Part shown: positions 2,568 through 20,494 of the stretch, one piece after another
How positions within the stretch are numbered: the first letter of the stretch is position 1
Layout: each line of letters starts with the position of its first letter
From: Bacteriovoracia bacterium
GTDB taxonomy: Bacteria; Bdellovibrionota; UBA1018; CAIPTA01
Assembly (NCBI GenBank): GCA_050246755.1
Contig: JBFWVL010000003.1
Span: 1 to 64,000, forward strand
Direction of reading: 5' to 3'
Length of the DNA: 64,000 bases
The notes under the pieces: generated by a model
What the model was told of the DNA's origin: nothing
Databases searched by the model: none
Seen by the model: the letters and a program-made list of their open reading frames with translations, nothing else
Position numbers and translations under genes: made by a program

Positions 2568-2800
2568 GCCCCATGCTGCTGAGCATCTTGGCGGTGGGAG
2601 TCGCGCTGCTGCTGCTAATCCCATTCTTAAAAAATTCGCGGCAGAAGCGCTCGCTTGCCATTCTCGGCACGGTCGTGTTCGGAATCGCTGGGCTGGCCTT
2701 CGTGCTGGAAGAAGAAAGAAGCCGCGCGGTGAATCTAATCACTTTCGCGGCTATGATAGGGCTATTCTGGCTCGCCGGAAAATTCGAGGCGAAGGACTAA
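2564..2800 (+). CDS. Small 3-TM membrane protein
   Basis: GTGA overlap with the upstream stop; three hydrophobic segments. Confidence 0.6.
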   Translation: MSPMLLSILAVGVALLLLIPFLKNSRQKRSLAILGTVVFGIAGLAFVLEEERSRAVNLITFAAMIGLFWLAGKFEAKD

Positions 2801-4644
2801 AGAGTAGAGTCGCGCTCTCCGAAGAAGTTGATCGTCGACTCCGTGGGCACGATGCGGAGGCCGTTGAGGGCGTCCATGATGCGTTTGTCCTGGCCATAGA
2901 TATCCGGGCCGAAGAGCAGGTTCGATCCCGAGAGGGCGATCGTAGTGCCCATCACGAATACCGGCATGCGGGTCGTGAGCTGGATCTTTTTCGCCACCAC
3001 GGTGGAATCGGCGATCATGCCATCGATCATATTCTTATCGATGCGCTGATCCTGCAGCAAGCGGTCGGCAAGCTCCACCGGCAATTCGAGACGGATGCAG
3101 CCCGAGCTATTGGCGCGCAGGAGGTTGCCGAAGAGCTCACGGTGATTCGTGTCGTGCATATAGATATCGTGCTTGTTCTTGAGCAGCTGGAACTTAATCC
3201 GGCCCAGGGAATTGTTTGGTCCCGGATCCTCACGGAAAGTATAGGGGGGAGGGTTTTGCACGGTGAACTGGCTCCAGTAGTCGGCGTCGAATTCGTAGGG
3301 GTCGAGCTCGCGGCCGTTTTCCAGGATCTTCATACCTAGCTGGCTAAAGTAGGAGGGATCCTGCATTACTTGCGGGAGAATGTCTTTCACCACGATGGAC
3401 CCCGGGGCGAACCAGTAAGGGTTCACGATCAGGTAGCCGATTTCGTCGGGGAAGGAGGGAGTCTGGCGCAGCGTTTGGCCCACGACCGTTTTCATCGATA
3501 GGGTTTCTTGGCCATTCTGCACTAACCGCATGTGCTGGCGGCCGAGGTCCACGAAAATATAATTCTGGCCGAGATCAACGGGCATTAAGCGCCAGCGTTC
3601 GATGTTCACTTGGAGCTGGCGAATGCGGGCATCGATCGAAGTATCGAGGGCGTTGAGGGTATTGGGGCCAACGAGGCCGTCAGCGGATTTTTTTTGTCCG
3701 GTCTGAAAGTTTTTCACGCCGGCTTCGAGTACGGCATCGTAGGTCGGATTTGGATCGTTACGGTCCACGCCTTCAGGCAGCATGCCGAGGTCGAAGAGGC
3801 GTGCGCGGATCGCAGGCACGTTTTTACTCACCGAGCCCACTTTGAGTTGTTTGTCGGAAACGAGCTTGGGCCAGCCGCCTGACTTTTTGGTGGCCTGGAG
3901 GCGGGTAAGCGCGGTTACCATTTTTTGGTAGATGGGATGCTTGGGCTCGAGCGATTGCAGGCCAGCGTAGAGCGCTTCCGGGGAGGCAAGGATTTCGTTC
4001 AGGAAGGCGTAACTGTTGAACGAGCGTTTTTTGTATTCGATGTCCACGATGTTTTGCGAGGCATCCTGGGGATTGGTGCGGCCGGTAGCGGTATCGTTCG
4101 CGTACTGGAGGTAGGCGATCGTCATGAGCAAGTCGAGTTCGCCGAGGGATTTCACATCGCGGAGGGCGAGGCGGGATTCGGCGTCGGAGCTCCAGTAGAA
4201 GGAAGCGGAGAGGCCTTTGTTCGCGGATTCTTCCACGAGAATTTTGCGCATCATCTGGCCCACGGGAGTGAGGCCATTCATATCTACGAATAGGGGCTGG
4301 AAATTGCGCAGGCTATAGAGACGCTGGGCGATGTCTTTCACCACGTACTGGGGTTGTTTACCGATTTTCAGCGACCCTTTTCCTTGCAGCGAAAGGCGCA
4401 GGAGATCGCCGAGGTTGGCGGCATTGGTTACGGAGGAGAAGGGGCCTACTACTACGGGCTTTGGTTTTCCCATTACCACGGGCGGAGCCGGTTCTTCCGG
4501 TTGCGGTTGGGGGTAGGTAGGATAGGAAGGGCGGGAGGGAATCCCGAAAAGATCGTCGAAAAATCCTGCCTGGGCAGAAGGGGCGGCTAGAACGGCGGCC
4601 AGGAGGAAGAGCTGTGAGAGGCGATTTTTTTGAGCGGATGGCAT
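2797..4644 (-). CDS. Murein L,D-transpeptidase, YcbB/LdtD type (scaffold, PG-binding and YkuD domains)
   Basis: Signal peptide; PG-binding segment (VKNFQ...ADGLVGPNT); NIERWR; YkuD catalytic IYMHDT...SSGCIRL. Confidence 0.92.
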   Translation of the reverse strand: MPSAQKNRLSQLFLLAAVLAAPSAQAGFFDDLFGIPSRPSYPTYPQPQPEEPAPPVVMGKPKPVVVGPFSSVTNAANLGDLLRLSLQGKGSLKIGKQPQYVVKDIAQRLYSLRNFQPLFVDMNGLTPVGQMMRKILVEESANKGLSASFYWSSDAESRLALRDVKSLGELDLLMTIAYLQYANDTATGRTNPQDASQNIVDIEYKKRSFNSYAFLNEILASPEALYAGLQSLEPKHPIYQKMVTALTRLQATKKSGGWPKLVSDKQLKVGSVSKNVPAIRARLFDLGMLPEGVDRNDPNPTYDAVLEAGVKNFQTGQKKSADGLVGPNTLNALDTSIDARIRQLQVNIERWRLMPVDLGQNYIFVDLGRQHMRLVQNGQETLSMKTVVGQTLRQTPSFPDEIGYLIVNPYWFAPGSIVVKDILPQVMQDPSYFSQLGMKILENGRELDPYEFDADYWSQFTVQNPPPYTFREDPGPNNSLGRIKFQLLKNKHDIYMHDTNHRELFGNLLRANSSGCIRLELPVELADRLLQDQRIDKNMIDGMIADSTVVAKKIQLTTRMPVFVMGTTIALSGSNLLFGPDIYGQDKRIMDALNGLRIVPTESTINFFGERDSTL

Positions 4645-4684
4645 AACGGGCTCCAACTTCAGCGAATAAGAAATACGTTCGGCC

Positions 4685-4951: not shown

Positions 4952-5587
4952 CTACGCAAAAATTTCTAGCATCTGCTCTTCTTTGAGCACTTTCTGCACG
5001 GCCGGGCGGGCCAGCACGCGTTTCATGAATGCCTGCACGTTTTTGTACTGCTTGGTATCTATCTCCACGAATTTGGTGAAGCCGAGGTTGATGAAGAGCA
5101 GGCAGTCCGCGATCGTGAAGTTTTTGCCGGTAATAAAATCCTTACCCGCCAGATTTTTTTCGATGTGCTCGAGGTAGGCATGAATATCGGTCAGCGTTTT
5201 CGCCTTGATCTCAGCTTTGGCATCATCCGCAACCATCCATTTGCCGCGAATGCGAAAGAGCGGGGCGAAAGATTTTTGAAAATCCGAGCTGCAGAACGAG
5301 AGCCAACTCATAGTCTCGGCGCGCTCCACTGAGCCGGGGGAGGCGAGGAGCTTCGCTTGCGGGCTATTGTCGGCGATGTATTCCATGATCGCGATCGTTT
5401 GGGTGATGGGCTTTCCGTCGATGGTAATGGCGGGAACCGCGTTAAGCGGATTCACCTTTAAGAGTTCGTCCACGTTCACGTTTCTGCTCCAGCTCACCTC
5501 CACGGGAGTGAATGCCAGGCCCGATTCTACGAGCGCGATGTGAGTGGCGGTGGAGCCGGTTACGGTGGAGTAATAAAATTTCAGCAT
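4952..5587 (-). CDS. Glutathione S-transferase (beta/GstA-like)
   Basis: NPLNAVPAI, ITQTIAIMEYI, FTIADCLLF, RVLARPAVQ. Confidence 0.93.
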   Translation of the reverse strand: MLKFYYSTVTGSTATHIALVESGLAFTPVEVSWSRNVNVDELLKVNPLNAVPAITIDGKPITQTIAIMEYIADNSPQAKLLASPGSVERAETMSWLSFCSSDFQKSFAPLFRIRGKWMVADDAKAEIKAKTLTDIHAYLEHIEKNLAGKDFITGKNFTIADCLLFINLGFTKFVEIDTKQYKNVQAFMKRVLARPAVQKVLKEEQMLEIFA

Positions 5588-5692
5588 TGGGATTCCTCAG
5601 ATTTGTTTAGGTTCTCAAGCTATCACGGGCGGGAGAATGGCGGATTGCGTCGAATGCTGACTTCACCTTTCTCTTCCGCTATAGTTCTCGCT

Positions 5693-6877
5693 ATGGACAT
5701 GAGCTTTCATCTCTGGCTCGAATACGTGATTCGATTCTCGCACTTGGTGGCCGGCGTGGCCTGGATCGGAAGCTCGTTCTATTTCATCTGGATGGATTCC
5801 AGTTTCGAAAGCCCCGAGACGGCGCGACGTAACGTGGAGGGAGAGCTCTTCATGGTGCACGGCGGTTTCTACTACCAGGTGGAAAAGCGCAAGATTTTTC
5901 CGGGGGAACTTCCCAAGGTGCTGCACTGGTTTAAGTGGGAGGCTACCCTTACGGTATTTACCGGCTTCCTTCTCCTGTTCGTTCTCTATTATTTGCGGGG
6001 CGCGAGTTTGCTGATCGACGCGCAAGTATACCCGCTCACGCAGTGGCAGGCGATTGGGTATAGCTTCGGCATCATCGTGGGCTCTTGGTTTCTTTACGAT
6101 CTGATGTGGAATGCCAAATTAGTCCCTAGCAAAGCGGTCAGCACGGTTCTTTCGGTTTTCTTTTTTACCGGCCTCATCTATGGGCTCACGCATCTTTTCA
6201 GCGGGCGCGGAGCTTTTATTCTGGCCGGCGCGGTGATGGGTACGATGATGGTGCTGAACGTGTGGGTGAGAATTTTGCCGGGGCAGGCGAAGATGATCCG
6301 CGAAGCACAGGCGGGCCAGGTGCCGGATTATTCCGTGAGCCTGAAATCCAAAACTCGTTCGGTACACAATACGTATTTTATATTTCCGGTGCTATTCATC
6401 ATGCTCAGCAACCACTATCCGGTGGTGTATTCGCATCCTCTGAATTGGCTGCTGCTGATTATCCTCGGCGTATCGGGTGCGCTCACGCGTCACGCGATGG
6501 TAACGAAGAGCCCCGTGCAGCGCTGGACTTTGTTGCCGGCCGCGATCGGTTTGGGGGCGCTAGTGATGATGACGGGAGCGGAGAAGCACTCGGAGCCCGC
6601 CGGGCCTAAAGTGGAGTTTGCCCAATTGCATGGGATCATGGAGAACCGCTGTTTGGCTTGTCATAGCAGTCATCCTACGGATGATGTTTGGAAAACGGCT
6701 CCGAATGGCGTGGTGCTCGAGAGCGAGGCACAGGTTCGTGCGAAGGCGAACCTGATTCACCTCCACGTGGTGATCGCCAAATCGATGCCGCTCGGGAACA
6801 AGACGAATATGACCGAAGAAGAACGTGCGGTATTTGCTAAATGGCTGAAACAAGAAGCCTTGGTTCAGCCATTTTAG
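5693..6877 (+). CDS. puuD: Urate hydroxylase PuuD (membrane domain plus C-terminal cytochrome c)
   Basis: HLVAGVAWIGSSFYFIWMD, VHGGFYY, LHWFKWEA, RSVHNTYF, MLSNHYP; heme motif CLACH; MPLGNKTNMT. Lies in a urate-pathway context. Confidence 0.93.
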   Translation: MDMSFHLWLEYVIRFSHLVAGVAWIGSSFYFIWMDSSFESPETARRNVEGELFMVHGGFYYQVEKRKIFPGELPKVLHWFKWEATLTVFTGFLLLFVLYYLRGASLLIDAQVYPLTQWQAIGYSFGIIVGSWFLYDLMWNAKLVPSKAVSTVLSVFFFTGLIYGLTHLFSGRGAFILAGAVMGTMMVLNVWVRILPGQAKMIREAQAGQVPDYSVSLKSKTRSVHNTYFIFPVLFIMLSNHYPVVYSHPLNWLLLIILGVSGALTRHAMVTKSPVQRWTLLPAAIGLGALVMMTGAEKHSEPAGPKVEFAQLHGIMENRCLACHSSHPTDDVWKTAPNGVVLESEAQVRAKANLIHLHVVIAKSMPLGNKTNMTEEERAVFAKWLKQEALVQPF

Positions 6878-6890
6878 TTTTTCGGAATAA

Positions 6891-7259
6891 CTAACGAACG
6901 GTGCAGTTGGTGGCAATGGAGATATCGCCTTGTTCGCCGCTAGCGTCTACACTGCCGGAATAGATTCCGCGGCCGGCGTAGTTCGTGTTCAAAATAATTT
7001 TTCCGTTGGAGTCCTGGGCGGTGAAGTGCAAGCTCTGGCCCGTAACGAAGCGGCTGCTCGTCACGCGCATATTGAGCTTCTTCAAAACTTCCGCGTCTTT
7101 TGAGATTACCACGCTGGCCCGGCTGGTGAATCGGGCGCCCGCCATTTTCGCGCGTAGCAGAAGATTATAGCCCATAATGCTTCCGGTGCAGGTGAGCTGG
7201 CTGGCTTGTGCGGCCCCGCTCAGTAAAATAGAACCCAGGATAAACGCAGTTTTTACCAT
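6891..7259 (-). CDS. Small secreted beta-rich protein with terminal cysteines
   Basis: GGAGG RBS, signal peptide ending AAQA, LTC at the mature N-terminus and CTVR at the C-terminus. Confidence 0.75.
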   Translation of the reverse strand: MVKTAFILGSILLSGAAQASQLTCTGSIMGYNLLLRAKMAGARFTSRASVVISKDAEVLKKLNMRVTSSRFVTGQSLHFTAQDSNGKIILNTNYAGRGIYSGSVDASGEQGDISIATNCTVR

Positions 7260-7369
7260 GTAACCTCCAAATGTTTTCAACCCTATAGTTAGGGTATATA
7301 GAATAGTTTTAATTTTCTACAAGAACGGTTTAGCCGCAGCAGCTGACACCGCAGCGGAGAAGCGCTGCG

Positions 7370-8375
7370 TTAGGCGAAGATCCGGATGCGATTGATGCCG
7401 CCGTCGGGGTAAGTTTTCACTTGAACGGCGGTGAAAATTTCCGCGTGGGGGAAATGAAATTCCTGCCGATTCCCCGCAAAGGCCTTGGCCTTCGTTTTCG
7501 GCACTAGCTCGATCCATTTATTCCCGCTGAGGCCATGCAGGCTTACATAGAGGGGATTATTGTTCACGAAAAAAGTGTAATCGAGCTCCACGCGGCCGAT
7601 CTGGGTGGGAGCGGCGAGCTCGATGACTACCTCTTCGTGATGGCCTGGATCGCGGGAGCGCGAAGATTCCATTCCGTCGAACATATGAATTGGCGGGTAG
7701 GGGGAGATTACCTGGGCCGCGGGGCCGTAGTGTTCATTGCTGGCGCTCACTAGCTTGGCGCCGAAGGCTTGGCTGGCGAAATCGATCTCGGCGCCGGAAT
7801 GGAAGTTCTTTCTCTTTTCTTCGGCCGAAAACGTATAGGGAATGGTTAGAGGTTTGCGCGTTTTCGGAATGGCTTCGTCAAAACGGAGGCTCTTGGCGCC
7901 CGGGGAAAAATTCCTGGCTTCGGATTCGGGAAGGTCTTGGTAGAGCCCGAGGCGGGAGAAGCCCCCGTCCGGGAACATCTCCACACGAATTTGATCGTAC
8001 ACGGTGGTATTCAAGCCGAGGTCGAAGCGCAGTAGCGAATGGCCTTGCAGAGGAGTTTTCGGCAGGATTTCCCGCCAGGTGCCATGGCTGAGCCCAAAGA
8101 GGGCCACGAACTCGGCTTGATTTCCATCATGGAACTTCGTGGAGAGCGAAGCGTAGCGGATGGAGGACGGCTTCCTCAGTTCCAGCACCAGCGTTTCTTT
8201 GCCGAGCGGGTTATGGCGAGCCGACTCCCAGCTATCCATGACCTTACCCTGATCGCAGAAAAGCTCGGGATTAAATAGGGGGAGGTGGGGGGAGATCAAG
8301 TTCTCGGCGCGCGCGAACTTTTGGTTGGTGCAGGAGAGAATCTTCGCGCCCACCAGAATATTTCGGGAAGCGAGG
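7370..8375 (-). other. Allantoicase domain (two repeats) of the fusion
   Basis: GKVMDSWESAR...FPDGGFSRL and SNEHYG...FDGMESSRSRDPGH...YPDGGINRIR. Boundaries approximate. Confidence 0.88.
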
Positions 8376-11300
8376 GGATCCGGAGGGCCCTTTTCAGGAA
8401 TCTCCGCTGGCAGCGTGGGAAGGAAGGCGTCGAAGAGTAAGGTTTTGTAGCCCAGGTTCACGATCTCTTCTTGTTTCAGATTTTGCGGAGAAAATTTTTC
8501 CTGGAACTTGGTGAAATCAATTCCCTGAATGCGGAGCGTGCGCAAAATTTCCTGGGCGGCTTCGGCGATGAAAGGCACCGCACGATTATCGCCGTTGGCG
8601 AGAATCACGAGGCCCTTGCCTTGGTCTGGCCCGAAGAAACAATGGAGGTAGAGGGCACGGAAACCTTCGTTGGCACCCTGGTGGAGCGCGAATTTGTTGG
8701 GGCCGGCTTCCGCCACGAACACGCCGAGGCCCATCTCGCAGCCCATGAAGGCGCGGCAGCCTTTGTCGGAGCCGTGGAGCATGCGCACGGCCGTATCGTG
8801 GGAAATGCCTTCGCCGCCGTCTAGCTCATGGTAAGCCTCGCTGAGGTTGCGCAGGAAGTGCGCTATATCGCTCGCGGTGCCGAAAGCGCCGGCGGTGAAA
8901 CCAGGAAAGTGGAGGCGGCCTCCGGGAACTTCGTCTCCTGAATCCAGGTAGCCCGTGGCGGAGGGGGACGAGTAATGAAACGTAGTATTTTCGAGGCCAA
9001 ATAATTCCGAGGTATTTACGCCGAGCGATTTGAGGAGATGCTCCACCACCAAGAAACCGCCGCCGGAGTAATGAAATTCCTTTCCGGGCTCGGCCAAGAT
9101 TTTGATTTTCTCGTAGCCATGCTTGCCATCCATTAATTCCAGCAAATCCGGCATTTCCCGTGTGGGAGGCAGGCCCTTCACGTAATGCATGTTCAGGGCG
9201 GAGTGGCCGAGGAGATGCTCGAGAGTAACCTGTTCCGCCCAATTTTTGTGGGGAGAAGAGAGGCGAAAGGGTGATTTAGCGCGCGCGAAAAGCTCGTTTA
9301 CCGGAGTGGCAAGGGGGATATTCAATTCGCGGAAGGCCTCGAGGGCGAGGGCGGCGGCAAAAGTTTTGCTGAGCGAGGCAATTTCGAATCTGGTTTCTTT
9401 TGTTACGGGGATCCCTTTTTTACTTTCGCCATAGCTAAGAGACTGGGTATTGCCGTGAAAATTTAGGGCCACGCCGGCGCCCATAATTCCGTATTTTACC
9501 CGCAAGGACTCAATTTTTTCTTTGAGCTGGTTGAGGGGCTGCGCGGTCATTCGCTTTCGCGTGATCTCCCAGAGGGCGGAACGGGCATTTTCCTGCTCTT
9601 GATCAGGAGAATTGTTGACCCTGGTGGCGAGCGATTCCAGCAATTCTTTCGCGGATTTTCCCTGCGCCGAGATGAGGAACTTAAAGCCGAATTTTTTGCA
9701 GTACGTTTCCCCTAAGGCGCGCAGCTCTTCCTGCACGCTTTCTTCGCCGGCCAGCGCCTGGGCCTGTTCGGCGGCGGCCTTGGCATCGAGGGTTTTTTTG
9801 CTCTGGCCGATATCTCCGTGGAAAGAGGCGGCGGCGAGAATTTCGGCCAGTGAAAAAGAGCGCACGATCCGTTCGGCTTCACCGAAGTCTTCCGCCACCA
9901 GCAGGGCCATGTCTTCAGCGAATCGTTCCGATCCGCAGATTTCAAAGTAATGCTCGAAGCGTTGCACGTATTCGGGCAGCGCGAATTTTCCCGGATCCAG
10001 CTCATTGGCTTTCGCCCACGGGTCTTGGGCGGAGCGAATGGCATCCACGGTAAAGGGCATCAGCAGTTCCGTGGCGAATTCCACGGGCCTTTCGGCCGTC
10101 ATCAGCTGGAGCATGATGCGCATTGAAATCGGGTACCAACGTGCGGTGCGCTCGTCCCACTTCACCTGCACGATCTTTTTTCCGTTGGAGAGATCCCGGC
10201 GGATGAAGTTCATTTCTTCGTGCGCGATGCAGATAAATTCTTCGAGGGAGAAGCGGCCGTGGGCGAGCTCGGCCCAGACCTCCCAGCGTGACCTTTCGGC
10301 GGTGGCCAGATCGTCCATCACGCGCACCGGGATGCCGTCGATGATGGTGGGGAGGGCCACGCAGCCATTCCCCGAGAGCCAGTCGGTTAGGTACTGCAGC
10401 GACTGAAACACGTTGTAGCGGATTTCATCGGGGTGATTATTGGGAATGAAGTCCGACTCCTTGATGTCGGCTACGATCAATGAGCGCACGTAGCTGGGAT
10501 TATCGGTGTCCAGGCCCTCAATATCGGGACCGGAAATAAAGCCCAAAATTTCTTTATGGTATTTTTCATCGAGCAGGGAAGTGACTAAACTCGTGAGCTT
10601 CGATCCGTCGCCCGCTATTTTTTGTTTCCAGGCTTCCACCAAAGCTAGGCCCAGGCGCACGAAATCGGGGTGTGCTACCCAAAATCCCGTCAGGTTCCGC
10701 TTCATCTGGGTGATCACGTCTTTGAGGTAGCCCTTCAGCGTGATTTGCAGCGAATCATGCCCCTGGGCGGGAAGGATTCCGTACATTCCCCCCACCTTGA
10801 TGCCGCCGCGGGATCCTACCGCTTCCGCCAGGAGATTATGGGAAGCCTTAATGTACTTGATCACGATATTCGGATCGGCCTTCACGGGGATGCGGTAGTT
10901 GGCGTCGTTCTTAAAGAGCCGCGCGGTGGAGGCAAGGTAGTCGTGCCAGCCCAGCGAGGCCCCAGCGAAGTAAGGGTACAGAGCATCCATGATCTCGTGC
11001 GCTCGCAGAATGGCGCGAGGATTTTCGAGCACGATCATGAGGCGCACGCTGCCCGGCCGGTACGTATGGTGCTGGGCCTGGATCATGCGCTCCGCCGTGG
11101 CGATCATCAGGTGGATATACGCGGCCTCTTCCTCGTTCTCGAGCTTGGGGACGTAAAAAACGAGAGCCCGCGGGTTATTCCAATTACGGAAGAGGTGGAG
11201 CGCGAAATCATAGAGGTGAAGGGGGAGGGGATTTGCTTGGTAGAAAAGAAAATTGGAAGGCAGAGCCAATCCCGGAAATCTTTTTATCGGCAGGGCGAGA

Positions 11301-11989
11301 TGATCAGCCGCCAGCTCGTAGTTTTTTGTCCCCTCGCTTAATGAAAGCGTGCCTTCAAAGCAGCCGGTGAGATTTACGGCGGCGTCCACGAGATCGGCAC
11401 GGAGCGGGGTCTTGGAGTCTTCGTCGTCGGCCCCCCACATGGGAGAGCCAGCGCTGGACGAAGCCAATAGCTCGGCCACGATCGCGGGCTCGGTGGGCAA
11501 TTTGCGGTGGTAGGAATTCATCGCATTGATCGCCATTTTCGCGGAATCGGGCGGGCCGAAAAGCGTTACGTGTGGGCCCATAAGAAATTCCGGAAGAGGC
11601 GCTACCTTCGCCCCGCCTTGACGGCAGTAATTTTTATTTTTCGGCCCGATCACAATGCGACCCTTCGCGTCTTCAAGGCCGAGCACGGTTTGGTAGTCGG
11701 GGCTCAGCCAGTCGCGGCGCAAGCTTTCATTGAAGGCATGGCAGGCGGTCACTCGTTCATCAATGAATTTACGGTCGAGGATGCGCTGGCGCAGAACTTT
11801 GGCGAGCGTCGGCTTGATTTCTTCGTAGAGCGCGACCAAAAACTTTAGAGACTCCTCGGTTTCGAGCCCGCCGCCCTCTCCCACCTGCGCTAGGCCTTCC
11901 ACGCCCTTTACGGCGCGAGCCTCGGCCAGCAATGCTTTCAGCAAGTTCGGCGAAATATAGTCGTGGTAGTAGGGGATCTCGAAGCTCAC
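7370..11989 (-). CDS. Four-domain purine-catabolism fusion: malate synthase / OHCU decarboxylase / beta-lactamase-fold serine hydrolase / allantoicase
   Basis: Single uninterrupted 1539-aa ORF with a GTG start 5 nt after the uraH stop; domain motifs are listed in the sub-features. Confidence 0.9.
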   Translation of the reverse strand: MSFEIPYYHDYISPNLLKALLAEARAVKGVEGLAQVGEGGGLETEESLKFLVALYEEIKPTLAKVLRQRILDRKFIDERVTACHAFNESLRRDWLSPDYQTVLGLEDAKGRIVIGPKNKNYCRQGGAKVAPLPEFLMGPHVTLFGPPDSAKMAINAMNSYHRKLPTEPAIVAELLASSSAGSPMWGADDEDSKTPLRADLVDAAVNLTGCFEGTLSLSEGTKNYELAADHLALPIKRFPGLALPSNFLFYQANPLPLHLYDFALHLFRNWNNPRALVFYVPKLENEEEAAYIHLMIATAERMIQAQHHTYRPGSVRLMIVLENPRAILRAHEIMDALYPYFAGASLGWHDYLASTARLFKNDANYRIPVKADPNIVIKYIKASHNLLAEAVGSRGGIKVGGMYGILPAQGHDSLQITLKGYLKDVITQMKRNLTGFWVAHPDFVRLGLALVEAWKQKIAGDGSKLTSLVTSLLDEKYHKEILGFISGPDIEGLDTDNPSYVRSLIVADIKESDFIPNNHPDEIRYNVFQSLQYLTDWLSGNGCVALPTIIDGIPVRVMDDLATAERSRWEVWAELAHGRFSLEEFICIAHEEMNFIRRDLSNGKKIVQVKWDERTARWYPISMRIMLQLMTAERPVEFATELLMPFTVDAIRSAQDPWAKANELDPGKFALPEYVQRFEHYFEICGSERFAEDMALLVAEDFGEAERIVRSFSLAEILAAASFHGDIGQSKKTLDAKAAAEQAQALAGEESVQEELRALGETYCKKFGFKFLISAQGKSAKELLESLATRVNNSPDQEQENARSALWEITRKRMTAQPLNQLKEKIESLRVKYGIMGAGVALNFHGNTQSLSYGESKKGIPVTKETRFEIASLSKTFAAALALEAFRELNIPLATPVNELFARAKSPFRLSSPHKNWAEQVTLEHLLGHSALNMHYVKGLPPTREMPDLLELMDGKHGYEKIKILAEPGKEFHYSGGGFLVVEHLLKSLGVNTSELFGLENTTFHYSSPSATGYLDSGDEVPGGRLHFPGFTAGAFGTASDIAHFLRNLSEAYHELDGGEGISHDTAVRMLHGSDKGCRAFMGCEMGLGVFVAEAGPNKFALHQGANEGFRALYLHCFFGPDQGKGLVILANGDNRAVPFIAEAAQEILRTLRIQGIDFTKFQEKFSPQNLKQEEIVNLGYKTLLFDAFLPTLPAEIPEKGPPDPLASRNILVGAKILSCTNQKFARAENLISPHLPLFNPELFCDQGKVMDSWESARHNPLGKETLVLELRKPSSIRYASLSTKFHDGNQAEFVALFGLSHGTWREILPKTPLQGHSLLRFDLGLNTTVYDQIRVEMFPDGGFSRLGLYQDLPESEARNFSPGAKSLRFDEAIPKTRKPLTIPYTFSAEEKRKNFHSGAEIDFASQAFGAKLVSASNEHYGPAAQVISPYPPIHMFDGMESSRSRDPGHHEEVVIELAAPTQIGRVELDYTFFVNNNPLYVSLHGLSGNKWIELVPKTKAKAFAGNRQEFHFPHAEIFTAVQVKTYPDGGINRIRIFA
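8525..9530 (-). other. Serine hydrolase domain of the beta-lactamase class C/AmpC superfamily
   Basis: FEIAS872LSK875 (SxxK), LLGHSA, FHY974SGGGF, H1103QGANEGF. Boundaries approximate. Confidence 0.88.
9545..9975 (-). other. OHCU decarboxylase (UraD) domain of the fusion
   Basis: CGSERF, H724GDIG, AEQA, YCKKFGFKFLISAQGKS, EITRKRM. Confidence 0.88.
10050..11989 (-). other. Malate synthase A-like domain of the fusion
   Basis: GP...KMAINAMN, ADDEDS, R237, DFALHLF, YVPKLE, VLEN, GWHDY, GGM, GFWVAHP, WLSGNGCV, MDD560LATAERSR. Confidence 0.88.
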
Positions 11990-11994
11990 AAAAA

Positions 11995-12318
11995 CTAGCT
12001 GCCCCGGTAGGTGGAATACCCGTAGGGATTGAGGAGAAGGGGCACGTGGTATTTCCGTTTCGTATCGGAAATTTCAAAATGCACGGGCACGATGGTAAAG
12101 AAGGGTTTCACGTTATTTTTCTTAAAGTAATCGTCCACGAAAAATTGTAGACGATAGCCACCGGCTTCTAGGGCGCAGTCGAAAGCGATGCGCCCATCGG
12201 CATTAGTTTTCTCGGTGGCGAGAATGTCCCAGGAACCGCCGTCTTTTTTCTCGAGCTGCACCGTAACTTGGGCGGCCGGGTTTCCGAGACTGGTATCGAG
12301 AATATGGGTGCTGATCAT
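11995..12318 (-). CDS. uraH: 5-hydroxyisourate hydrolase (transthyretin-like)
   Basis: ISTHILDT...G.PA, TNADGR, YHVPLLL, C-terminal YRGS. Confidence 0.97.
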   Translation of the reverse strand: MISTHILDTSLGNPAAQVTVQLEKKDGGSWDILATEKTNADGRIAFDCALEAGGYRLQFFVDDYFKKNNVKPFFTIVPVHFEISDTKRKYHVPLLLNPYGYSTYRGS

Positions 12319-12409
12319 GGGCTAAAGCATAGGGCTAGGTGGGCCTAAAGGCAAACCATGGCGCAACGTGACAACCCACCCAAATCTTGGATTCATGGTA
12401 TAAAGGAGC

Positions 12410-19410: not shown

Positions 19411-20265
19411 CTACTGCGCGCGAACGTCGTGGAGGAAATCGGAGAGAACGCGGCTGATGCGGCTGCTCTTCTCGCCTAATTTTCCGGCAATTTTGTTCAC
19501 CACGTGATTGCTGGGCATTTCCAGTTTCACGATGGGCGCGATTTCTTCGGCCCTCAGGCCGAGGGCGCCGAGGAATTTTTCTTTTTCCCGCGATTCCGCG
19601 AGCTGAAGAATTTTCCGTGCCGAGGAGGTGCGGATATTGTAGTCGCGGGCCAACAGCTCGGCGGCATCGCGTTGACGTTTTTTGGTGGGCTCCAGGATGG
19701 TCATGAGGCCTTGTACGCCCGGGCCCTTCCCACCGCGTCCGCGGCCAGGACCGTTACCGTCGCCACGTCCGGAGCCGTTATGATCTCCACCGCCGTGATT
19801 TCCACCACCGCCTTGCCATCCGCCGCCGCCATTGTGATCACCACGGCCAGGACCGTTACCATCGCCACGTCCGGGGCCATTATGATCTCCACCGCCGTGA
19901 TTTCCACCACCGCCTTGCCATCCGCCACCGCCATTGTGATCACCACGGCCAGGACCGTTACCATCGCCACGTCCGGGGCCATTATGATCTCCACCGCCGC
20001 CATGCCAACCGCCGCCGTTCCCAGGATTTGCTGGAGGGGCCGGAGGGGGATTTGGGGCCGGAGGAGTATAAACAGGAGGAGTATACGAAGGGGGGCTCGG
20101 CTGGTCCCAGCCAGAGCTTCCCCCGCTATTCCAGTTATCGCTATTGTCGTAGTCGCGTTGCCAGCCACCGGAGCCGCTGTCGTGGCTATAGGTATAGGAT
20201 TCTTCGCAGCCTGGTAAAAGAGTCAAAGCTCCGAGCGCAAGCCCGAATAAATGTAGATGTTTCAC
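19411..20265 (-). CDS. Lipoprotein with Pro-rich linker, Gly-rich 34-aa repeats and a helical C-terminal domain
   Basis: GGAGG RBS and GTG start; lipobox LLPGC; repeat GGGDHNGPGRGDGNGPGRGDHNGGGGWQGGGGNH. Confidence 0.75.
   Translation of the reverse strand: MKHLHLFGLALGALTLLPGCEESYTYSHDSGSGGWQRDYDNSDNWNSGGSSGWDQPSPPSYTPPVYTPPAPNPPPAPPANPGNGGGWHGGGGDHNGPGRGDGNGPGRGDHNGGGGWQGGGGNHGGGDHNGPGRGDGNGPGRGDHNGGGGWQGGGGNHGGGDHNGSGRGDGNGPGRGRGGKGPGVQGLMTILEPTKKRQRDAAELLARDYNIRTSSARKILQLAESREKEKFLGALGLRAEEIAPIVKLEMPSNHVVNKIAGKLGEKSSRISRVLSDFLHDVRAQ
19742..19999. repeat. Intragenic tandem repeat, 102-bp unit, about 2.5 copies
   Basis: TGATCTCCACCGCC occurs at 19781, 19883 and 19985 (period 102). Confidence 0.92.
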
Positions 20266-20309
20266 GAAACCCTCCAAAAAAGATTGTTGAATAGACCGCG
20301 ACCCGGAGA

Positions 20310-20324
20310 GCAATGGACGTGCCA
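20310..20324 (-). promoter_or_regulatory. Sigma54 promoter of the Gly-rich lipoprotein gene
   Basis: Minus strand TGGCACGTCCATTGC, 45 nt upstream of the GTG start. Confidence 0.7.
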
Positions 20325-20494
20325 CGGCGACTCGTCGATAAAACGCATTTGGAGGTCGCGATCAAATTAGTCGGGGTCAGTATGAGTCCAAGGGTCTAGA
20401 AAAAAATTCCACCGCTATGCGTTATTATTTTGCTCCATTATTTTTCTGAACCATTTTGACCGCATTCCTTGGCCCTGGCATAGTGACCGCACTC

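What the first reader, a model, noticed from the sequence alone, without database searches (positions are those of the whole stretch)
7370..11989. 1539-aa four-domain purine-degradation mega-enzyme
Seen: one continuous ORF holding malate synthase (aa ~1-650), OHCU decarboxylase (~670-815), serine hydrolase (~820-1155) and allantoicase (~1205-1539), each with recognisable motifs. Known: two-domain fusions such as UraD-UraH exist, and malate synthase clusters with allantoin genes (yeast DAL7). I do not know of a described protein with this four-domain architecture. Inference: the fusion channels unstable or reactive intermediates (OHCU, ureidoglycolate, glyoxylate) from OHCU to malate in one polypeptide.
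Basis: partly seen in the sequence, partly recalled or inferred. Interest (0 to 1): 0.92.

Follow-up and report, generated by a model that had tools for sequence, protein, structure and literature searches.

The report
Four-enzyme purine-breakdown fusion protein
A predatory-type bacterium carries one giant protein that joins four enzymes of uric-acid breakdown, and one of its parts looks like a so far undescribed kind of allantoinase built on the beta-lactamase fold.

Summary
Window 7370..11989 (minus strand) is one uninterrupted 1539-aa ORF with four domains: malate-synthase-like (MSL), OHCU decarboxylase, beta-lactamase-fold serine hydrolase (Blac) and allantoicase. It is not an assembly artefact. 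An independent contig from another study covers it without gaps, and 49 of 401 sampled Bdellovibrionota genomes carry it full-length.

The context is purine catabolism. uraH ends 5 nt upstream, a PuuD urate oxidase lies convergent downstream, and xdhABC is adjacent in some relatives.

The Blac domain probably replaces allantoinase. AllB is present in 32 of 35 genomes with stand-alone allantoicase and in 0 of 45 genomes with the fusion; PuuE is in 0 of 80. The same Blac subfamily is fused to allantoicase in other bacteria and in protists. In a dinoflagellate it is fused to allantoicase plus AllA ureidoglycolate lyase.

MSL, DUF6986 and AllA exclude each other among allantoicase genomes. MSL is therefore probably the ureidoglycolate lyase step. 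It keeps malate synthase's catalytic and acetyl-CoA residues, so it may also make malate.

No biochemistry exists, and my searches found no paper describing this.

The parts
7370..11989 (-). 1539-aa four-domain ORF (stop codon 7370-7372; GTG start at 11989)
   Evidence: Homologues align from residue 2-8 onward, which supports this start.
9995..11989 (-). Malate-synthase-like (MSL) domain, aa 1-~665. Keeps R237, E322, D350, D560 (= E. coli AceB R166, E250, D278, D447) and CoA-site G145, P146, M402, P441. Has W348-H349 in place of R276-W277.
   Evidence: Pfam. PDB hit 3cuz_A at 1.9e-31. MAFFT alignment with E. coli AceB. hhalign probability 100%, E 2.8e-52 over AceB 19-525. Motif positions.
9545..9952 (-). 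OHCU decarboxylase domain, aa ~680-815, with H724 (HGDIG), E741, FLISAQGKS 771-779 and an Arg in ITRKRM 809-814
   Evidence: Pfam 79.8 bits. Alignments to 5uou, 2q37 and 3o7h at about 1e-8. Positions. The catalytic roles of the His/Glu/Arg are recalled from the literature, not taken from a call.
8429..9541 (-). Beta-lactamase-fold serine hydrolase domain (Blac), aa 817-1187: S872-x-x-K875, Y974-S-G, H1103-Q-G. Proposed allantoinase.
   Evidence: Pfam 80 bits. Subfamily invariants. Only 90 representatives at E<=1e-30 among 1.84 billion. Functional inference.
7373..8377 (-). Allantoicase domain, aa 1205-1539, two repeats
   Evidence: Pfam 165.3 bits with 2 stretches. Yeast allantoicase 1sg3_A at 9e-28, both repeats aligned.
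11995..12318 (-). uraH, 5-hydroxyisourate hydrolase (107 aa). Its TAG stop is followed by TTTTT and then the GTG start of the fusion, so they are probably co-transcribed.
   Evidence: TIGR02962 136.1 bits against a cut-off of 87.45. PF00576. Junction sequence read. uraH found in 70 of 80 related loci L021-L100.
5540..6877 (+). puuD-type membrane cytochrome c urate oxidase, convergent with the fusion. The true start is probably downstream of 5540, because the Pfam match begins at residue 57.
   Evidence: PF06181 Urate_ox_N 311.8 bits. CLACH haem motif in the translation. PuuD found in 60 of 80 related loci L021-L100. Family function from PMC4562309 (abstract and passages).

Best explanation
The ORF encodes a cytoplasmic multi-enzyme of urate catabolism in a member of the Bdellovibrionota. 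PuuD oxidises urate and UraH hydrolyses 5-hydroxyisourate. The fusion protein then takes over.
(1) The OHCU decarboxylase domain makes (S)-allantoin.
(2) The beta-lactamase-fold domain opens the hydantoin ring through its Ser872/Lys875/Tyr974 triad. It acts as a third, non-homologous type of allantoinase, in place of AllB or PuuE.
(3) The allantoicase domain releases urea and (S)-ureidoglycolate.
(4) The malate-synthase-like domain handles ureidoglycolate, releasing the second urea and glyoxylate. This is the role played by AllA in other bacteria and by an MS-like protein in fish. Because MSL keeps the catalytic Asp/Arg, the Mg ligands and most acetyl-CoA contacts of malate synthase A, it may also condense the glyoxylate with acetyl-CoA to malate.

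Shown here: the domain content, the conservation of the fusion, the gene context and the complementary gene distributions. Inferred: every catalytic assignment for Blac and MSL, and any channelling.
For: CONTEXT. uraH lies 5 nt upstream and puuD lies beside the fusion. In 80 related loci (L021-L100) the only recurrent neighbours are PuuD (62 loci by ORF clustering), UraH (58), then xdhC, xdhB and xdhA in 16, 15 and 12 loci. By tblastn, UraH is in 70 of 80 and PuuD in 60 of 80.

MISSING STEPS IN THE OWN GENOME (95.7% complete). No AllB over the cut-off; the best hit, 208 bits, is PyrC. No PuuE (16), no AllA (17), no other malate synthase (18), no isocitrate lyase (19, 100), no DUF6986 (90).

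BLAC AS ALLANTOINASE.
- Among 80 allantoicase-bearing genomes of the phylum, AllB over the cut-off is in 32 of 35 with stand-alone allantoicase and 0 of 45 with the fusion. PuuE is in 0 of 80.
- A genome of the same genus (G215) has puuD-allB-alc-uraD-uraH, with AllB at 521 bits, where this genome has the fusion.
- Across 171 loci, a Blac hit and an AllB of the canonical kind (45-57% identical to G215's AllB) never share a locus. The one weaker AllB-like hit in a fusion locus (L085, 30% identity) is listed in the Against line.
- Independent fusions of the same subfamily exist: Blac+allantoicase in bacteria (P0379; G270) and in a eukaryote (P0216), and Blac+AllA ureidoglycolate lyase+allantoicase in the dinoflagellate Polykrikos kofoidii (P0396).
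- SxxK, YSG and HQ(G/A) are invariant or nearly so in 113 sequences.

MSL AS THE LYASE STEP.
- In the same 80 genomes, AllA (4), DUF6986 (29) and MSL (45 fusions plus G270) exclude each other. Only G386 (74% complete) has none.
- No AllA or DUF6986 occurs in 171 MSL loci.
- Stand-alone MSL sits in canonical clusters such as MSL-puuD-allB-alc-uraD-uraH (L121).
- Canonical malate synthase A is spread independently of cluster type: 15 of 35 against 15 of 45.
- Precedent: zebrafish MS-like protein is a ureidoglycolate lyase with Arg276 replaced (PMC10120013, sections 10-11). MSL has Trp and DUF6986 has Thr at that position, while all 7 canonical MSA aligned have Arg.

MSL MAY STILL MAKE MALATE. 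R166, E250, D278, D447, G96, P97, M330, W365 and P369 are kept in all 13 MSL sequences aligned, and M102 is M or L. The residue roles come from PMC3112382 passages. G000 shows no other glyoxylate sink among those tested: MSA, ICL, Gcl and a class-V aminotransferase.
Against: - There are no enzyme data for any member.
- Every domain scores below NCBIfam equivalog cut-offs.
- The closest solved structures to Blac are class C beta-lactamases, matched only over about 80 residues at E about 1e-6, so substrate cannot be read from homology.
- Fusion-type genomes still hold AllB-like amidohydrolases below the cut-off (243-300 bits in 16 of the 45) that could moonlight as allantoinase. One fusion locus (L085) also holds a weak AllB-like hit (30% identity, 130 bits).
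- Unlike the fish lyase, MSL keeps Trp365 and the acetyl-CoA site. That fits a true malate synthase better than a pure lyase.
- Most stand-alone MSL loci show no purine gene in the flanks (44 of 57). Several of these have 10 kb on each side (L119, L140, L156, L158).
- The genomes compared are relatives, so the counts overstate independence.
- 14 fusion genomes were left out of the profile tests.
- Two lineages (G107, G372) carry a broken, degenerate OHCU domain, so that step can be lost.
Confidence: 0.62

Rival explanations
1. The N-terminal domain is simply a dedicated malate synthase, like yeast DAL7. The serine hydrolase has some side role. Ureidoglycolate decays spontaneously or is split by the allantoicase domain. 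The protein therefore runs OHCU to malate with one or two steps supplied elsewhere.
For: MSL is a full-length homologue of malate synthase A (hhalign probability 100%). It has all four catalytic/Mg residues and most acetyl-CoA contacts. It is the only malate-synthase homologue in G000. No other glyoxylate sink was found among those tested. No urease or urea carboxylase was found over the cut-offs, so the carbon of glyoxylate would be the main gain. PMC10120013 (discussion passage) notes malate synthase genes in bacterial purine operons.
Against: It leaves allantoinase and ureidoglycolate lyase unassigned in 45 of 45 fusion genomes. It does not explain why MSL excludes AllA and DUF6986. It does not explain why a third of fusion genomes also keep a canonical malate synthase A. 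It does not explain why a dinoflagellate fuses AllA, not malate synthase, to Blac+allantoicase. MSL scores 122 bits against the 594.5 cut-off of the malate synthase A model.
Confidence: 0.22
2. The beta-lactamase-fold domain is not an allantoinase. It hydrolyses another amide of the pathway or an unrelated substrate, or it is a structural spacer. Allantoin is opened by a promiscuous cyclic amidohydrolase elsewhere in the genome.
For: There is no homology to any known allantoinase. PDB matches are weak and cover only the N-terminal 80 residues. AllB-like amidohydrolases of 243-300 bits exist in 16 of the 45 fusion genomes. G000 has two such paralogues, one of which is PyrC.
Against: In G000 the best AllB-like hit is a dihydroorotase over its own cut-off (320 against 279). 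The catalytic SxxK, Tyr and HQ motifs are invariant or nearly so across bacteria and protists, so the domain is not a spacer. Every other step from OHCU to ureidoglycolate has its own domain, and allantoinase is the only gap between the two flanking domains. The Blac subfamily recurs fused with allantoicase, and with allantoicase plus AllA. It never shares a locus with an AllB of the canonical kind.
Confidence: 0.2
3. The long ORF is an assembly or gene-calling artefact, or a decaying pseudogene.
For: The window comes from a metagenome-type assembly, and run X1 is a landfill metagenome that may be its source. A few relatives carry split or frameshifted copies: G107, G372, G399 and G329.
Against: An independent contig from another study covers the whole stretch without gaps. 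49 of 401 genomes carry an uninterrupted full-length frame at 54-63% identity. Closed genomes of cultured strains carry it. Catalytic motifs are intact in all four domains.
Confidence: 0.01

Closest known systems
AllB (cyclic amidohydrolase) and PuuE (polysaccharide-deacetylase fold), the two known allantoinase types
   Same: The proposed reaction of the Blac domain. It also holds the same place in the gene cluster or fusion, between OHCU decarboxylase and allantoicase. NCBIfam names the PuuE model 'uraD_N-term-dom'. From recall, not from a call: that name reflects known PuuE-UraD fusions, which would be a parallel to OHCU-Blac here.
   Different: There is no sequence or fold relation. Blac is a serine (SxxK) hydrolase of Pfam PF00144. 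AllB and PuuE are absent from the fusion genomes.
Zebrafish malate synthase-like ureidoglycolate lyase (DrMSL; PMC10120013, sections 10-11 read)
   Same: [quoted passage not shown] The glyoxylate/Mg site is kept, and Arg276 of E. coli malate synthase A is replaced.
   Different: DrMSL has Arg276Ile and Trp365Met and no conserved acetyl-CoA site. MSL has Arg276Trp and keeps Trp365 and the CoA contacts. The paper says its lyase group holds only eukaryotic sequences. I could not fetch a DrMSL sequence, so no direct tree or alignment was made.
Malate synthase A (E. coli AceB, PDB 3CUZ) and yeast DAL7 (recalled)
   Same: The whole three-part architecture aligns (hhalign E 2.8e-52). Catalytic Arg, Glu, Asp and Asp are kept. 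DAL7 is a malate synthase regulated with the allantoin genes (recalled).
   Different: About 25% identity. The score is 122 against the 594.5-bit cut-off. There is a roughly 21-aa insert after INAMN, an 8-13-aa insert before the catalytic Asp, and R276W/W277H. A very long branch separates MSL from MSA in a quick tree.
UraH-UraD fusion 'allantoin synthase' (reviewed in PMC13751858; passages read)
   Same: A natural fusion of consecutive uricolytic enzymes around unstable intermediates.
   Different: It has two domains, not four. Here UraH stays a separate gene. That 2026 review has 0 occurrences of 'lactamase' and 1 of 'malate synthase'.
DUF6986 (PF22484) proteins of canonical Bdellovibrionota purine clusters
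   Same: A malate-synthase/HpcH-superfamily TIM-barrel protein in the purine cluster. The Mg-ligand motifs are kept and Arg276 is replaced by Thr. It is mutually exclusive with MSL and AllA.
   Different: It is a different family of about 430-490 aa. Only a 73-column local match to malate synthase A was found. It is never fused. No paper or NCBIfam model was found.

Membership tests
Malate synthase A (TIGR01344 / PF01274+PF20659) | Scores over the curated family cut-off | tested here: not met
   TIGR01344 gives 122 bits against a 594.5 cut-off. The Pfam domain models do pass: MS_TIM-barrel 64.6 against 26.4, MS_C 37 against 23.1.
Malate synthase A (TIGR01344 / PF01274+PF20659) | Catalytic Arg166, Mg ligands Glu250 and Asp278, catalytic base Asp447 (E. 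coli numbering) | tested here: met
   R237, E322, D350 and D560 are conserved in all 13 MSL sequences aligned with AceB. Asp447 as the base comes from PMC3112382 passages. The other residue roles are recalled.
Malate synthase A (TIGR01344 / PF01274+PF20659) | Acetyl-CoA contacts Ile94, Thr95, Gly96, Met102, Met330, Pro369 | tested here: inconclusive
   G96, M330 and P369 are kept. M102 is M or L. I94 is replaced by L and T95 by F (residue list). This is compatible with CoA binding but does not prove it.
Malate synthase A (TIGR01344 / PF01274+PF20659) | Glyoxylate + acetyl-CoA to malate activity | not testable with these tools
   Needs an enzyme assay.
MS-like ureidoglycolate lyase (DrMSL group, PMC10120013) | Arg276 and Trp365 replaced, and acetyl-CoA site not conserved | tested here: not met
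   Arg276 is replaced, but by Trp rather than Ile. Trp365 and the CoA site are kept. MSL is therefore not a member of that group, though it may work like one.
MS-like ureidoglycolate lyase (DrMSL group, PMC10120013) | Branches with the eukaryotic lyase clade | not tested
   No DrMSL-type sequence could be fetched.
OHCU decarboxylase (PF09349 / TIGR03180) | Family score and the conserved His, Glu and C-terminal Arg | tested here: met
   PF09349 gives 79.8 bits against 24. TIGR03180 is below its cut-off at 70.9 against 139.4. H724, E741 and the Arg in ITRKRM align with 5uou and 2q37. The catalytic roles are recalled.
Serine beta-lactamase / PBP-like hydrolases (PF00144) | SxxK, a second-motif Tyr, and a third motif (KTG-like) | tested here: met
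   PF00144 gives 80 bits against 27. S872-L-S-K875, Y974-S-G and H1103-Q-G are present. Y, S, G, H and others are invariant, and SxxK is at least 90% conserved, in 113 sequences.
Class C beta-lactamase (resistance enzyme) | Scores over the family cut-off | tested here: not met
   NF033085 gives 43.4 bits against 415, and only over the first ~85 residues. This is not a resistance beta-lactamase.
Allantoinase AllB (TIGR03178) or PuuE (TIGR03212) | Homology to either family | tested here: not met
   P0001 matches neither (one search lists no such family). G000 has no member over the cut-off. The claim is 'works like', not 'is a member of'.
Allantoicase (PF03561 / TIGR02961) | Two allantoicase repeats | tested here: met
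   PF03561 gives 165.3 bits with 2 stretches. Both repeats align to yeast 1sg3. The equivalog cut-off is not reached: 167 against 278. The repeats score 75-106 bits each, against 140-190 in stand-alone enzymes of the phylum.

The most novel reading that the evidence does not exclude
The beta-lactamase-fold subfamily is a third, serine-nucleophile class of allantoinase. It is shared by Bdellovibrionota and diverse protists: dinoflagellate, haptophyte, pelagophyte, chlorarachniophyte and ichthyosporean. In addition, bacterial malate-synthase-like proteins (MSL, and separately DUF6986) are the long-missing ureidoglycolate lyases of bacteria that lack AllA. The 1539-aa protein would then be a complete four-step line from OHCU to glyoxylate, possibly on to malate.
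Probability: 0.42. Interest if true: 0.88.

Novelty: new variant of a known kind. Interest (0 to 1): 0.8.

Why it matters
Purine degradation is a textbook pathway whose gene set has been 'completed' several times by finding non-homologous replacements (PuuE, PuuD, the fish MS-like lyase). If the readings here hold, they add three things.

- A third allantoinase type on a fold known mainly for antibiotic resistance and cell-wall enzymes.
- Candidate ureidoglycolate lyases (MSL, DUF6986) for the many bacteria that have allantoicase but no AllA.
- The longest natural fusion of uricolytic steps, which is a ready-made test bed for whether fusion channels unstable ureides.

The same Blac family stands alone in marine protists that use organic nitrogen, so it may fill an annotation gap there too. 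Thousands of database entries now named 'serine hydrolase', 'beta-lactamase' or 'malate synthase' would need renaming. Some could be mistaken for resistance genes.

Tried and rejected
- Downstream gene as the allantoinase. In Bdellovibrio sp. HCB337 the gene after the fusion is a polysaccharide deacetylase. It does not match the PuuE model and occurs in no other locus. Rejected as coincidence.
- AllB-like hit in G000 (208 bits). It is dihydroorotase PyrC (TIGR00857 320 against 279).
- AllA presence as a discriminator between cluster types. AllA was in only 4 of 35 against 0 of 45 genomes. This was uninformative alone and became meaningful only together with DUF6986.
- Canonical malate synthase A as the counterpart of MSL. 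It is spread equally in both sets. Rejected.
- 'OHCU+Blac' two-domain proteins (P0149, P0133, P0138) as independent fusions. They begin inside MS_C or inside the OHCU domain. They are fragments or split forms and were not counted. Proteins of about 1000 aa with OHCU+Blac+Alc are suspect for the same reason: P0362 clusters with a 1580-aa member and P0371 starts in MS_C.
- ORF 6891..7280 (129 aa, downstream). It has no family and no tblastn hit in 91 loci. It is probably not a gene.
- Promoter/terminator scan. It found fewer sites than the shuffles and nothing usable.
- RNA evidence. No RNA holder was listed, so nothing can be said on expression. Runs X2 and X4 gave only short pieces.
- ESM Atlas. 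The window's sequence is not held. The homologue P0170 returned only generic PF00144 clusters.
- The genome-contig scan returned only fused Bdellovibrionota loci. Named genomes with stand-alone MSL (Persicimonas, Desulfogranum, Mariniblastus) could not be inspected for context. Metagenome loci were used instead.
- Supplements of PMC10120013 (alignments S14 and S17, listing active-site residues) were not seen. They may bear on the MSL comparison.
- The tree is the quick version. The careful search did not finish.
- 14 fusion genomes were dropped from the profile tests because of the 80-handle limit: G266, G293, G323, G326, G329, G353, G362, G383, G045, G090, G366, G387, G393, G399.
- The 91 loci include duplicates of the same genome (for example L010 = L030). 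Counts are therefore given for L021-L100.

Full report
OBSERVATION. Window 7370..11989 holds one ORF of 1539 codons on the minus strand, with a GTG start and no internal stop. Pfam places four kinds of domain on it, all above the gathering scores:
- MS_TIM-barrel (aa 237-449, 64.6 bits) with MS_C (521-640, 37 bits);
- OHCU_decarbox (705-814, 79.8 bits);
- Beta-lactamase (824-1144, 80 bits);
- two Allantoicase repeats (165.3 bits).

NCBIfam sees the same families, but each lies far below its equivalog cut-off. Malate synthase A scores 122 against 594.5, allantoicase 167 against 278, UraD 71 against 139 and class C beta-lactamase 43 against 415.

IS THE FUSION REAL? The window is contig C3 of a 3.55-Mb, 10-contig genome that is 95.7% complete. 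A search of 5.8 billion protein clusters gave 630 hits. The best 120 listed (the first being the window's own protein) are all 1504-1656 aa, the 119 others 57-75% identical over at least 99% of the query, and all carry the same Pfam set. Where sources give a name, it is Bdellovibrio, Bacteriovorax, Oligoflexus or Bdellovibrionota, with automatic labels such as 'serine hydrolase' or 'allantoicase/malate synthase/CubicO group peptidase'.

In a sample of 401 genomes of the window's phylum, 49 (G000 included) have an uninterrupted frame covering residues about 3-1538. The genome-contig scan found 407 relatives, among them the closed chromosomes of Bdellovibrio sp. HCB337 and Peredibacter sp. HCB2-198. 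Logan contigs from a different study (run X3, wastewater) include a 34.9-kb contig that covers 7350-12398 with 332 substitutions and no gap. Run X1 is identical and is probably the source. The artefact explanation is refuted.

CONTEXT. Directly upstream on the same strand lies uraH (11995..12318; TIGR02962 136 bits against 87). Its TAG is separated from the GTG of the fusion by five T. Convergent downstream lies a PuuD-type membrane cytochrome c urate oxidase (PF06181 311.8 bits, CLACH motif). The family was characterised in PMC4562309 (passages).

In the 80 related loci L021-L100, tblastn finds UraH in 70 and PuuD in 60. The Blac and allantoicase parts are missing only where contigs end. Clustering all flank ORFs shows that only the fusion (80 loci), PuuD (62) and UraH (58) recur. 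Next come xdhC, xdhB and xdhA in 16, 15 and 12 loci. G000 has xdhABC elsewhere, at C1:1187827-1192489. The module is therefore xanthine dehydrogenase, urate oxidase, HIU hydrolase and the fusion, with no other recurrent partner.

WHICH STEPS ARE UNACCOUNTED FOR? From OHCU to glyoxylate the known route needs four enzymes: OHCU decarboxylase, allantoinase, allantoicase and ureidoglycolate lyase. In G000 I found:
- no AllB over the cut-off (the best hit, 208 bits, is dihydroorotase PyrC);
- no PuuE;
- no AllA-type lyase;
- no malate synthase other than this domain;
- no isocitrate lyase;
- no urease alpha subunit, no urea carboxylase over the cut-off and no glyoxylate carboligase.

THE BETA-LACTAMASE-FOLD DOMAIN. 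Its subfamily is small and sharply bounded. Among 1.84 billion representatives, 3506 match at E<=1e-3 but only 90 at E<=1e-30. Across 113 members the motifs ASLSK, H..MHYV.G, PG..F.YSGGGF, FP..AAG and HQ(G/A)AN.GFR are invariant or nearly so. In P0001 these give S872, K875, Y974 and H1103. Solved structures match only weakly (class C beta-lactamases, about 1e-6, first 80 residues). Four lines of evidence point to allantoinase.

(a) Position. The domain lies between the OHCU decarboxylase and allantoicase domains.

(b) Displacement in situ. G215, a genome of the same genus, has xdhA-xdhB-xdhC-?-puuD-allB-alc-uraD-uraH-DUF6986, with AllB at 521 bits. G278 is similar (AllB 547 bits).

(c) Profile. 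I divided the 94 allantoicase-bearing genomes of the sample by allantoicase type: 35 stand-alone and 59 fused. I tested all 35 and 45 of the 59, because of the 80-handle limit. AllB over the cut-off is in 32 of 35 against 0 of 45. The three misses are G335, G371 and a truncated copy in G163. PuuE is in 0 of 80. In 171 loci, a Blac hit and an AllB of the canonical kind never coincide: in the metagenome set Blac is in 21 loci, AllB in 7 and both in 0, and among the fusion loci the only AllB-like hit is the weak one in L085 (30% identity).

(d) Independent fusions. Blac+allantoicase without any OHCU remnant occurs in bacteria (P0379, 747 aa; the 774-aa ORF of G270) and in a eukaryote (P0216). The transcript-derived protein P0396 of the dinoflagellate Polykrikos kofoidii is Blac + Ureidogly_lyase (PF04115, 114 bits) + allantoicase (275 bits). 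Stand-alone members occur in Amorphochlora, Sphaeroforma, Prymnesium, Aureococcus and Symbiodinium.

Hydrolysis of a cyclic amide through an acyl-enzyme is the hallmark chemistry of this fold (established knowledge), so opening a hydantoin ring is plausible. I put this reading at about 0.7.

THE MALATE-SYNTHASE-LIKE DOMAIN. MSL aligns with E. coli AceB over its whole length (hhalign probability 100%, E 2.8e-52) but forms a clade separated by a very long branch (quick tree). Stand-alone MSL proteins of about 680 aa exist in Desulfobulbales, Bradymonadales, Myxococcota and Planctomycetes, and the fused copies nest among them.

All 13 MSL sequences aligned keep Arg166, Glu250, Asp278, Asp447, Gly96, Pro97, Met330, Trp365 and Pro369 (E. 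coli numbering). Met102 is Met or Leu. Ile94 becomes Leu, Thr95 becomes Phe and Arg276-Trp277 become Trp-His. The CoA-site residues are those named in PMC3112382 (passages).

A paper I found in passing changes the question. Dembech et al. (PMC10120013; sections 10 and 11 read) showed that the zebrafish 'malate synthase-like' protein is a ureidoglycolate lyase without malate synthase activity. It is marked by Arg276Ile, Trp365Met and a non-conserved acetyl-CoA site. The authors state that their lyase group holds only eukaryotic sequences. MSL shares the loss of Arg276 but not the other two marks, so it is not a member of that group.

The distribution nevertheless points to the lyase step. Among the 80 genomes tested:
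- AllA is in 4 (G278, G245, G335, G041);
- DUF6986, a 430-490-aa protein of the same superfamily that sits in the canonical clusters, is in 29;
- MSL is in the 45 fusion genomes and in G270.

The three never overlap, and only G386 (74% complete) has none. No AllA or DUF6986 occurs in 171 MSL loci. Stand-alone MSL is found in otherwise canonical clusters, for example L121: MSL-puuD-allB-alc-uraD-uraH. DUF6986 also lacks Arg276 (it has GTYDY), while all 7 canonical malate synthases aligned have GRWDY. Canonical malate synthase A is spread independently of cluster type, 15 of 35 against 15 of 45.

On the other side, the conserved CoA pocket and the lack of any other glyoxylate sink or urea-using enzyme in G000 argue that MSL still condenses glyoxylate with acetyl-CoA. 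My estimates are: lyase activity present about 0.65, synthase activity present about 0.45, both about 0.25.

Against a strict link to purines, 44 of 57 stand-alone MSL loci show no purine gene in their flanks, several with 10 kb on either side.

OTHER DOMAINS. The OHCU domain aligns with 5uou, 2q37 and 3o7h at about 1e-8, with the His (HGDIG), Glu (EQ), FLIxAxGKS and C-terminal Arg in place. The allantoicase part aligns with both repeats of yeast 1sg3 at 9e-28. It is a divergent type: 75-106 bits per repeat against 140-190 in the stand-alone enzymes of the phylum.

LITERATURE. The following searches found no paper on this architecture, on a beta-lactamase-fold allantoinase, or on DUF6986:
- Bdellovibrio + allantoicase;
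- allantoinase / beta-lactamase / allantoicase / OHCU;
- allantoinase + serine-hydrolase terms (none of the 15 listed papers holds 'allantoinase');
- phrases for a new or third allantoinase (the hits are citations of the PuuE paper);
- DUF6986 / PF22484 (0 papers);
- 'ureidoglycolate lyase' + 'malate synthase-like' (only PMC10120013);
- Bdellovibrio / urate / allantoin.

A review of October 2026 on uricolytic enzymes and their fusions has 0 occurrences of 'lactamase'. The library lacks most subscription journals, and supplements were closed.

VERDICT. The 'serine hydrolase' is most likely the allantoinase. The 'malate synthase' most likely covers the ureidoglycolate lyase step, with malate synthesis possible but unproven. 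Channelling is untested.

I class it as a new variant of a known kind: a known pathway with probable non-homologous replacements for two steps, joined in an undescribed four-domain fusion.

Noticed in passing
L107 9791-11257 (G215:C33:18976-20235) and 28 other genomes: DUF6986 (PF22484, 605 bits) is a 430-490-aa protein of the malate-synthase/HpcH superfamily. It sits at the end of canonical puuD-allB-alc-uraD-uraH clusters. It is in 29 of 35 stand-alone-allantoicase genomes and 0 of 45 fusion genomes, and it excludes AllA and MSL. It is a candidate bacterial ureidoglycolate lyase. No paper and no NCBIfam model were found.
   Followed up: partly
L104 4699-9191 (G107) and L105 7607-12257 (G372): In two genera the fusion is split into two overlapping ORFs inside the OHCU domain, between the HG motif and the EQ motif. 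In G107 about 17 residues of that loop are missing. P0133 equals the second ORF of G107. This is either a degenerate OHCU step or a real two-piece form.
   Followed up: partly
L101 1-16000 (G270:C12); the same arrangement in metagenome locus L167: Variant cluster: puuD, then a Blac+allantoicase protein of 774 aa, a class-V aminotransferase (best match aspartate-glyoxylate aminotransferase BhcA, 207 bits, below cut-off), a 166-aa single allantoicase-like repeat, a stand-alone MSL on the other strand, and a second aminotransferase. This suggests glyoxylate goes to glycine there. G270 also has a canonical allantoicase and AllB on other contigs.
   Followed up: partly
L030 7974-9641 (Bdellovibrio sp. 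HCB337): The PuuD upstream of uraH in many loci is a 555-aa form with a C-terminal CarboxypepD_reg-like domain. It is only 35-40% identical to the window's PuuD. The window's type (58-70% identity) lies convergent downstream. There are two PuuD subtypes with two fixed positions.
   Followed up: no
G000 whole genome: No urease alpha subunit and no urea carboxylase over the cut-offs were found (genome 95.7% complete). The two ureas released per urate may therefore not be assimilated.
   Followed up: no
window 19411-20325 (-): A 304-aa ORF is rich in Gly/Asn/His/Pro with a long internal repeat (the GGG-DHNGPGRGDGNGPGRGDHNGGGGWQGGGGNHGG unit appears twice). It was seen only in the ORF translation.
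   Followed up: no
window 2797-4656 (-): A 619-aa L,D-transpeptidase (YkuD) with Scaffold and PG_binding_1 domains. The other neighbours (GST, MauE-like, DTW, hemerythrin) are unrelated to the purine module and are not conserved beside it.
   Followed up: no
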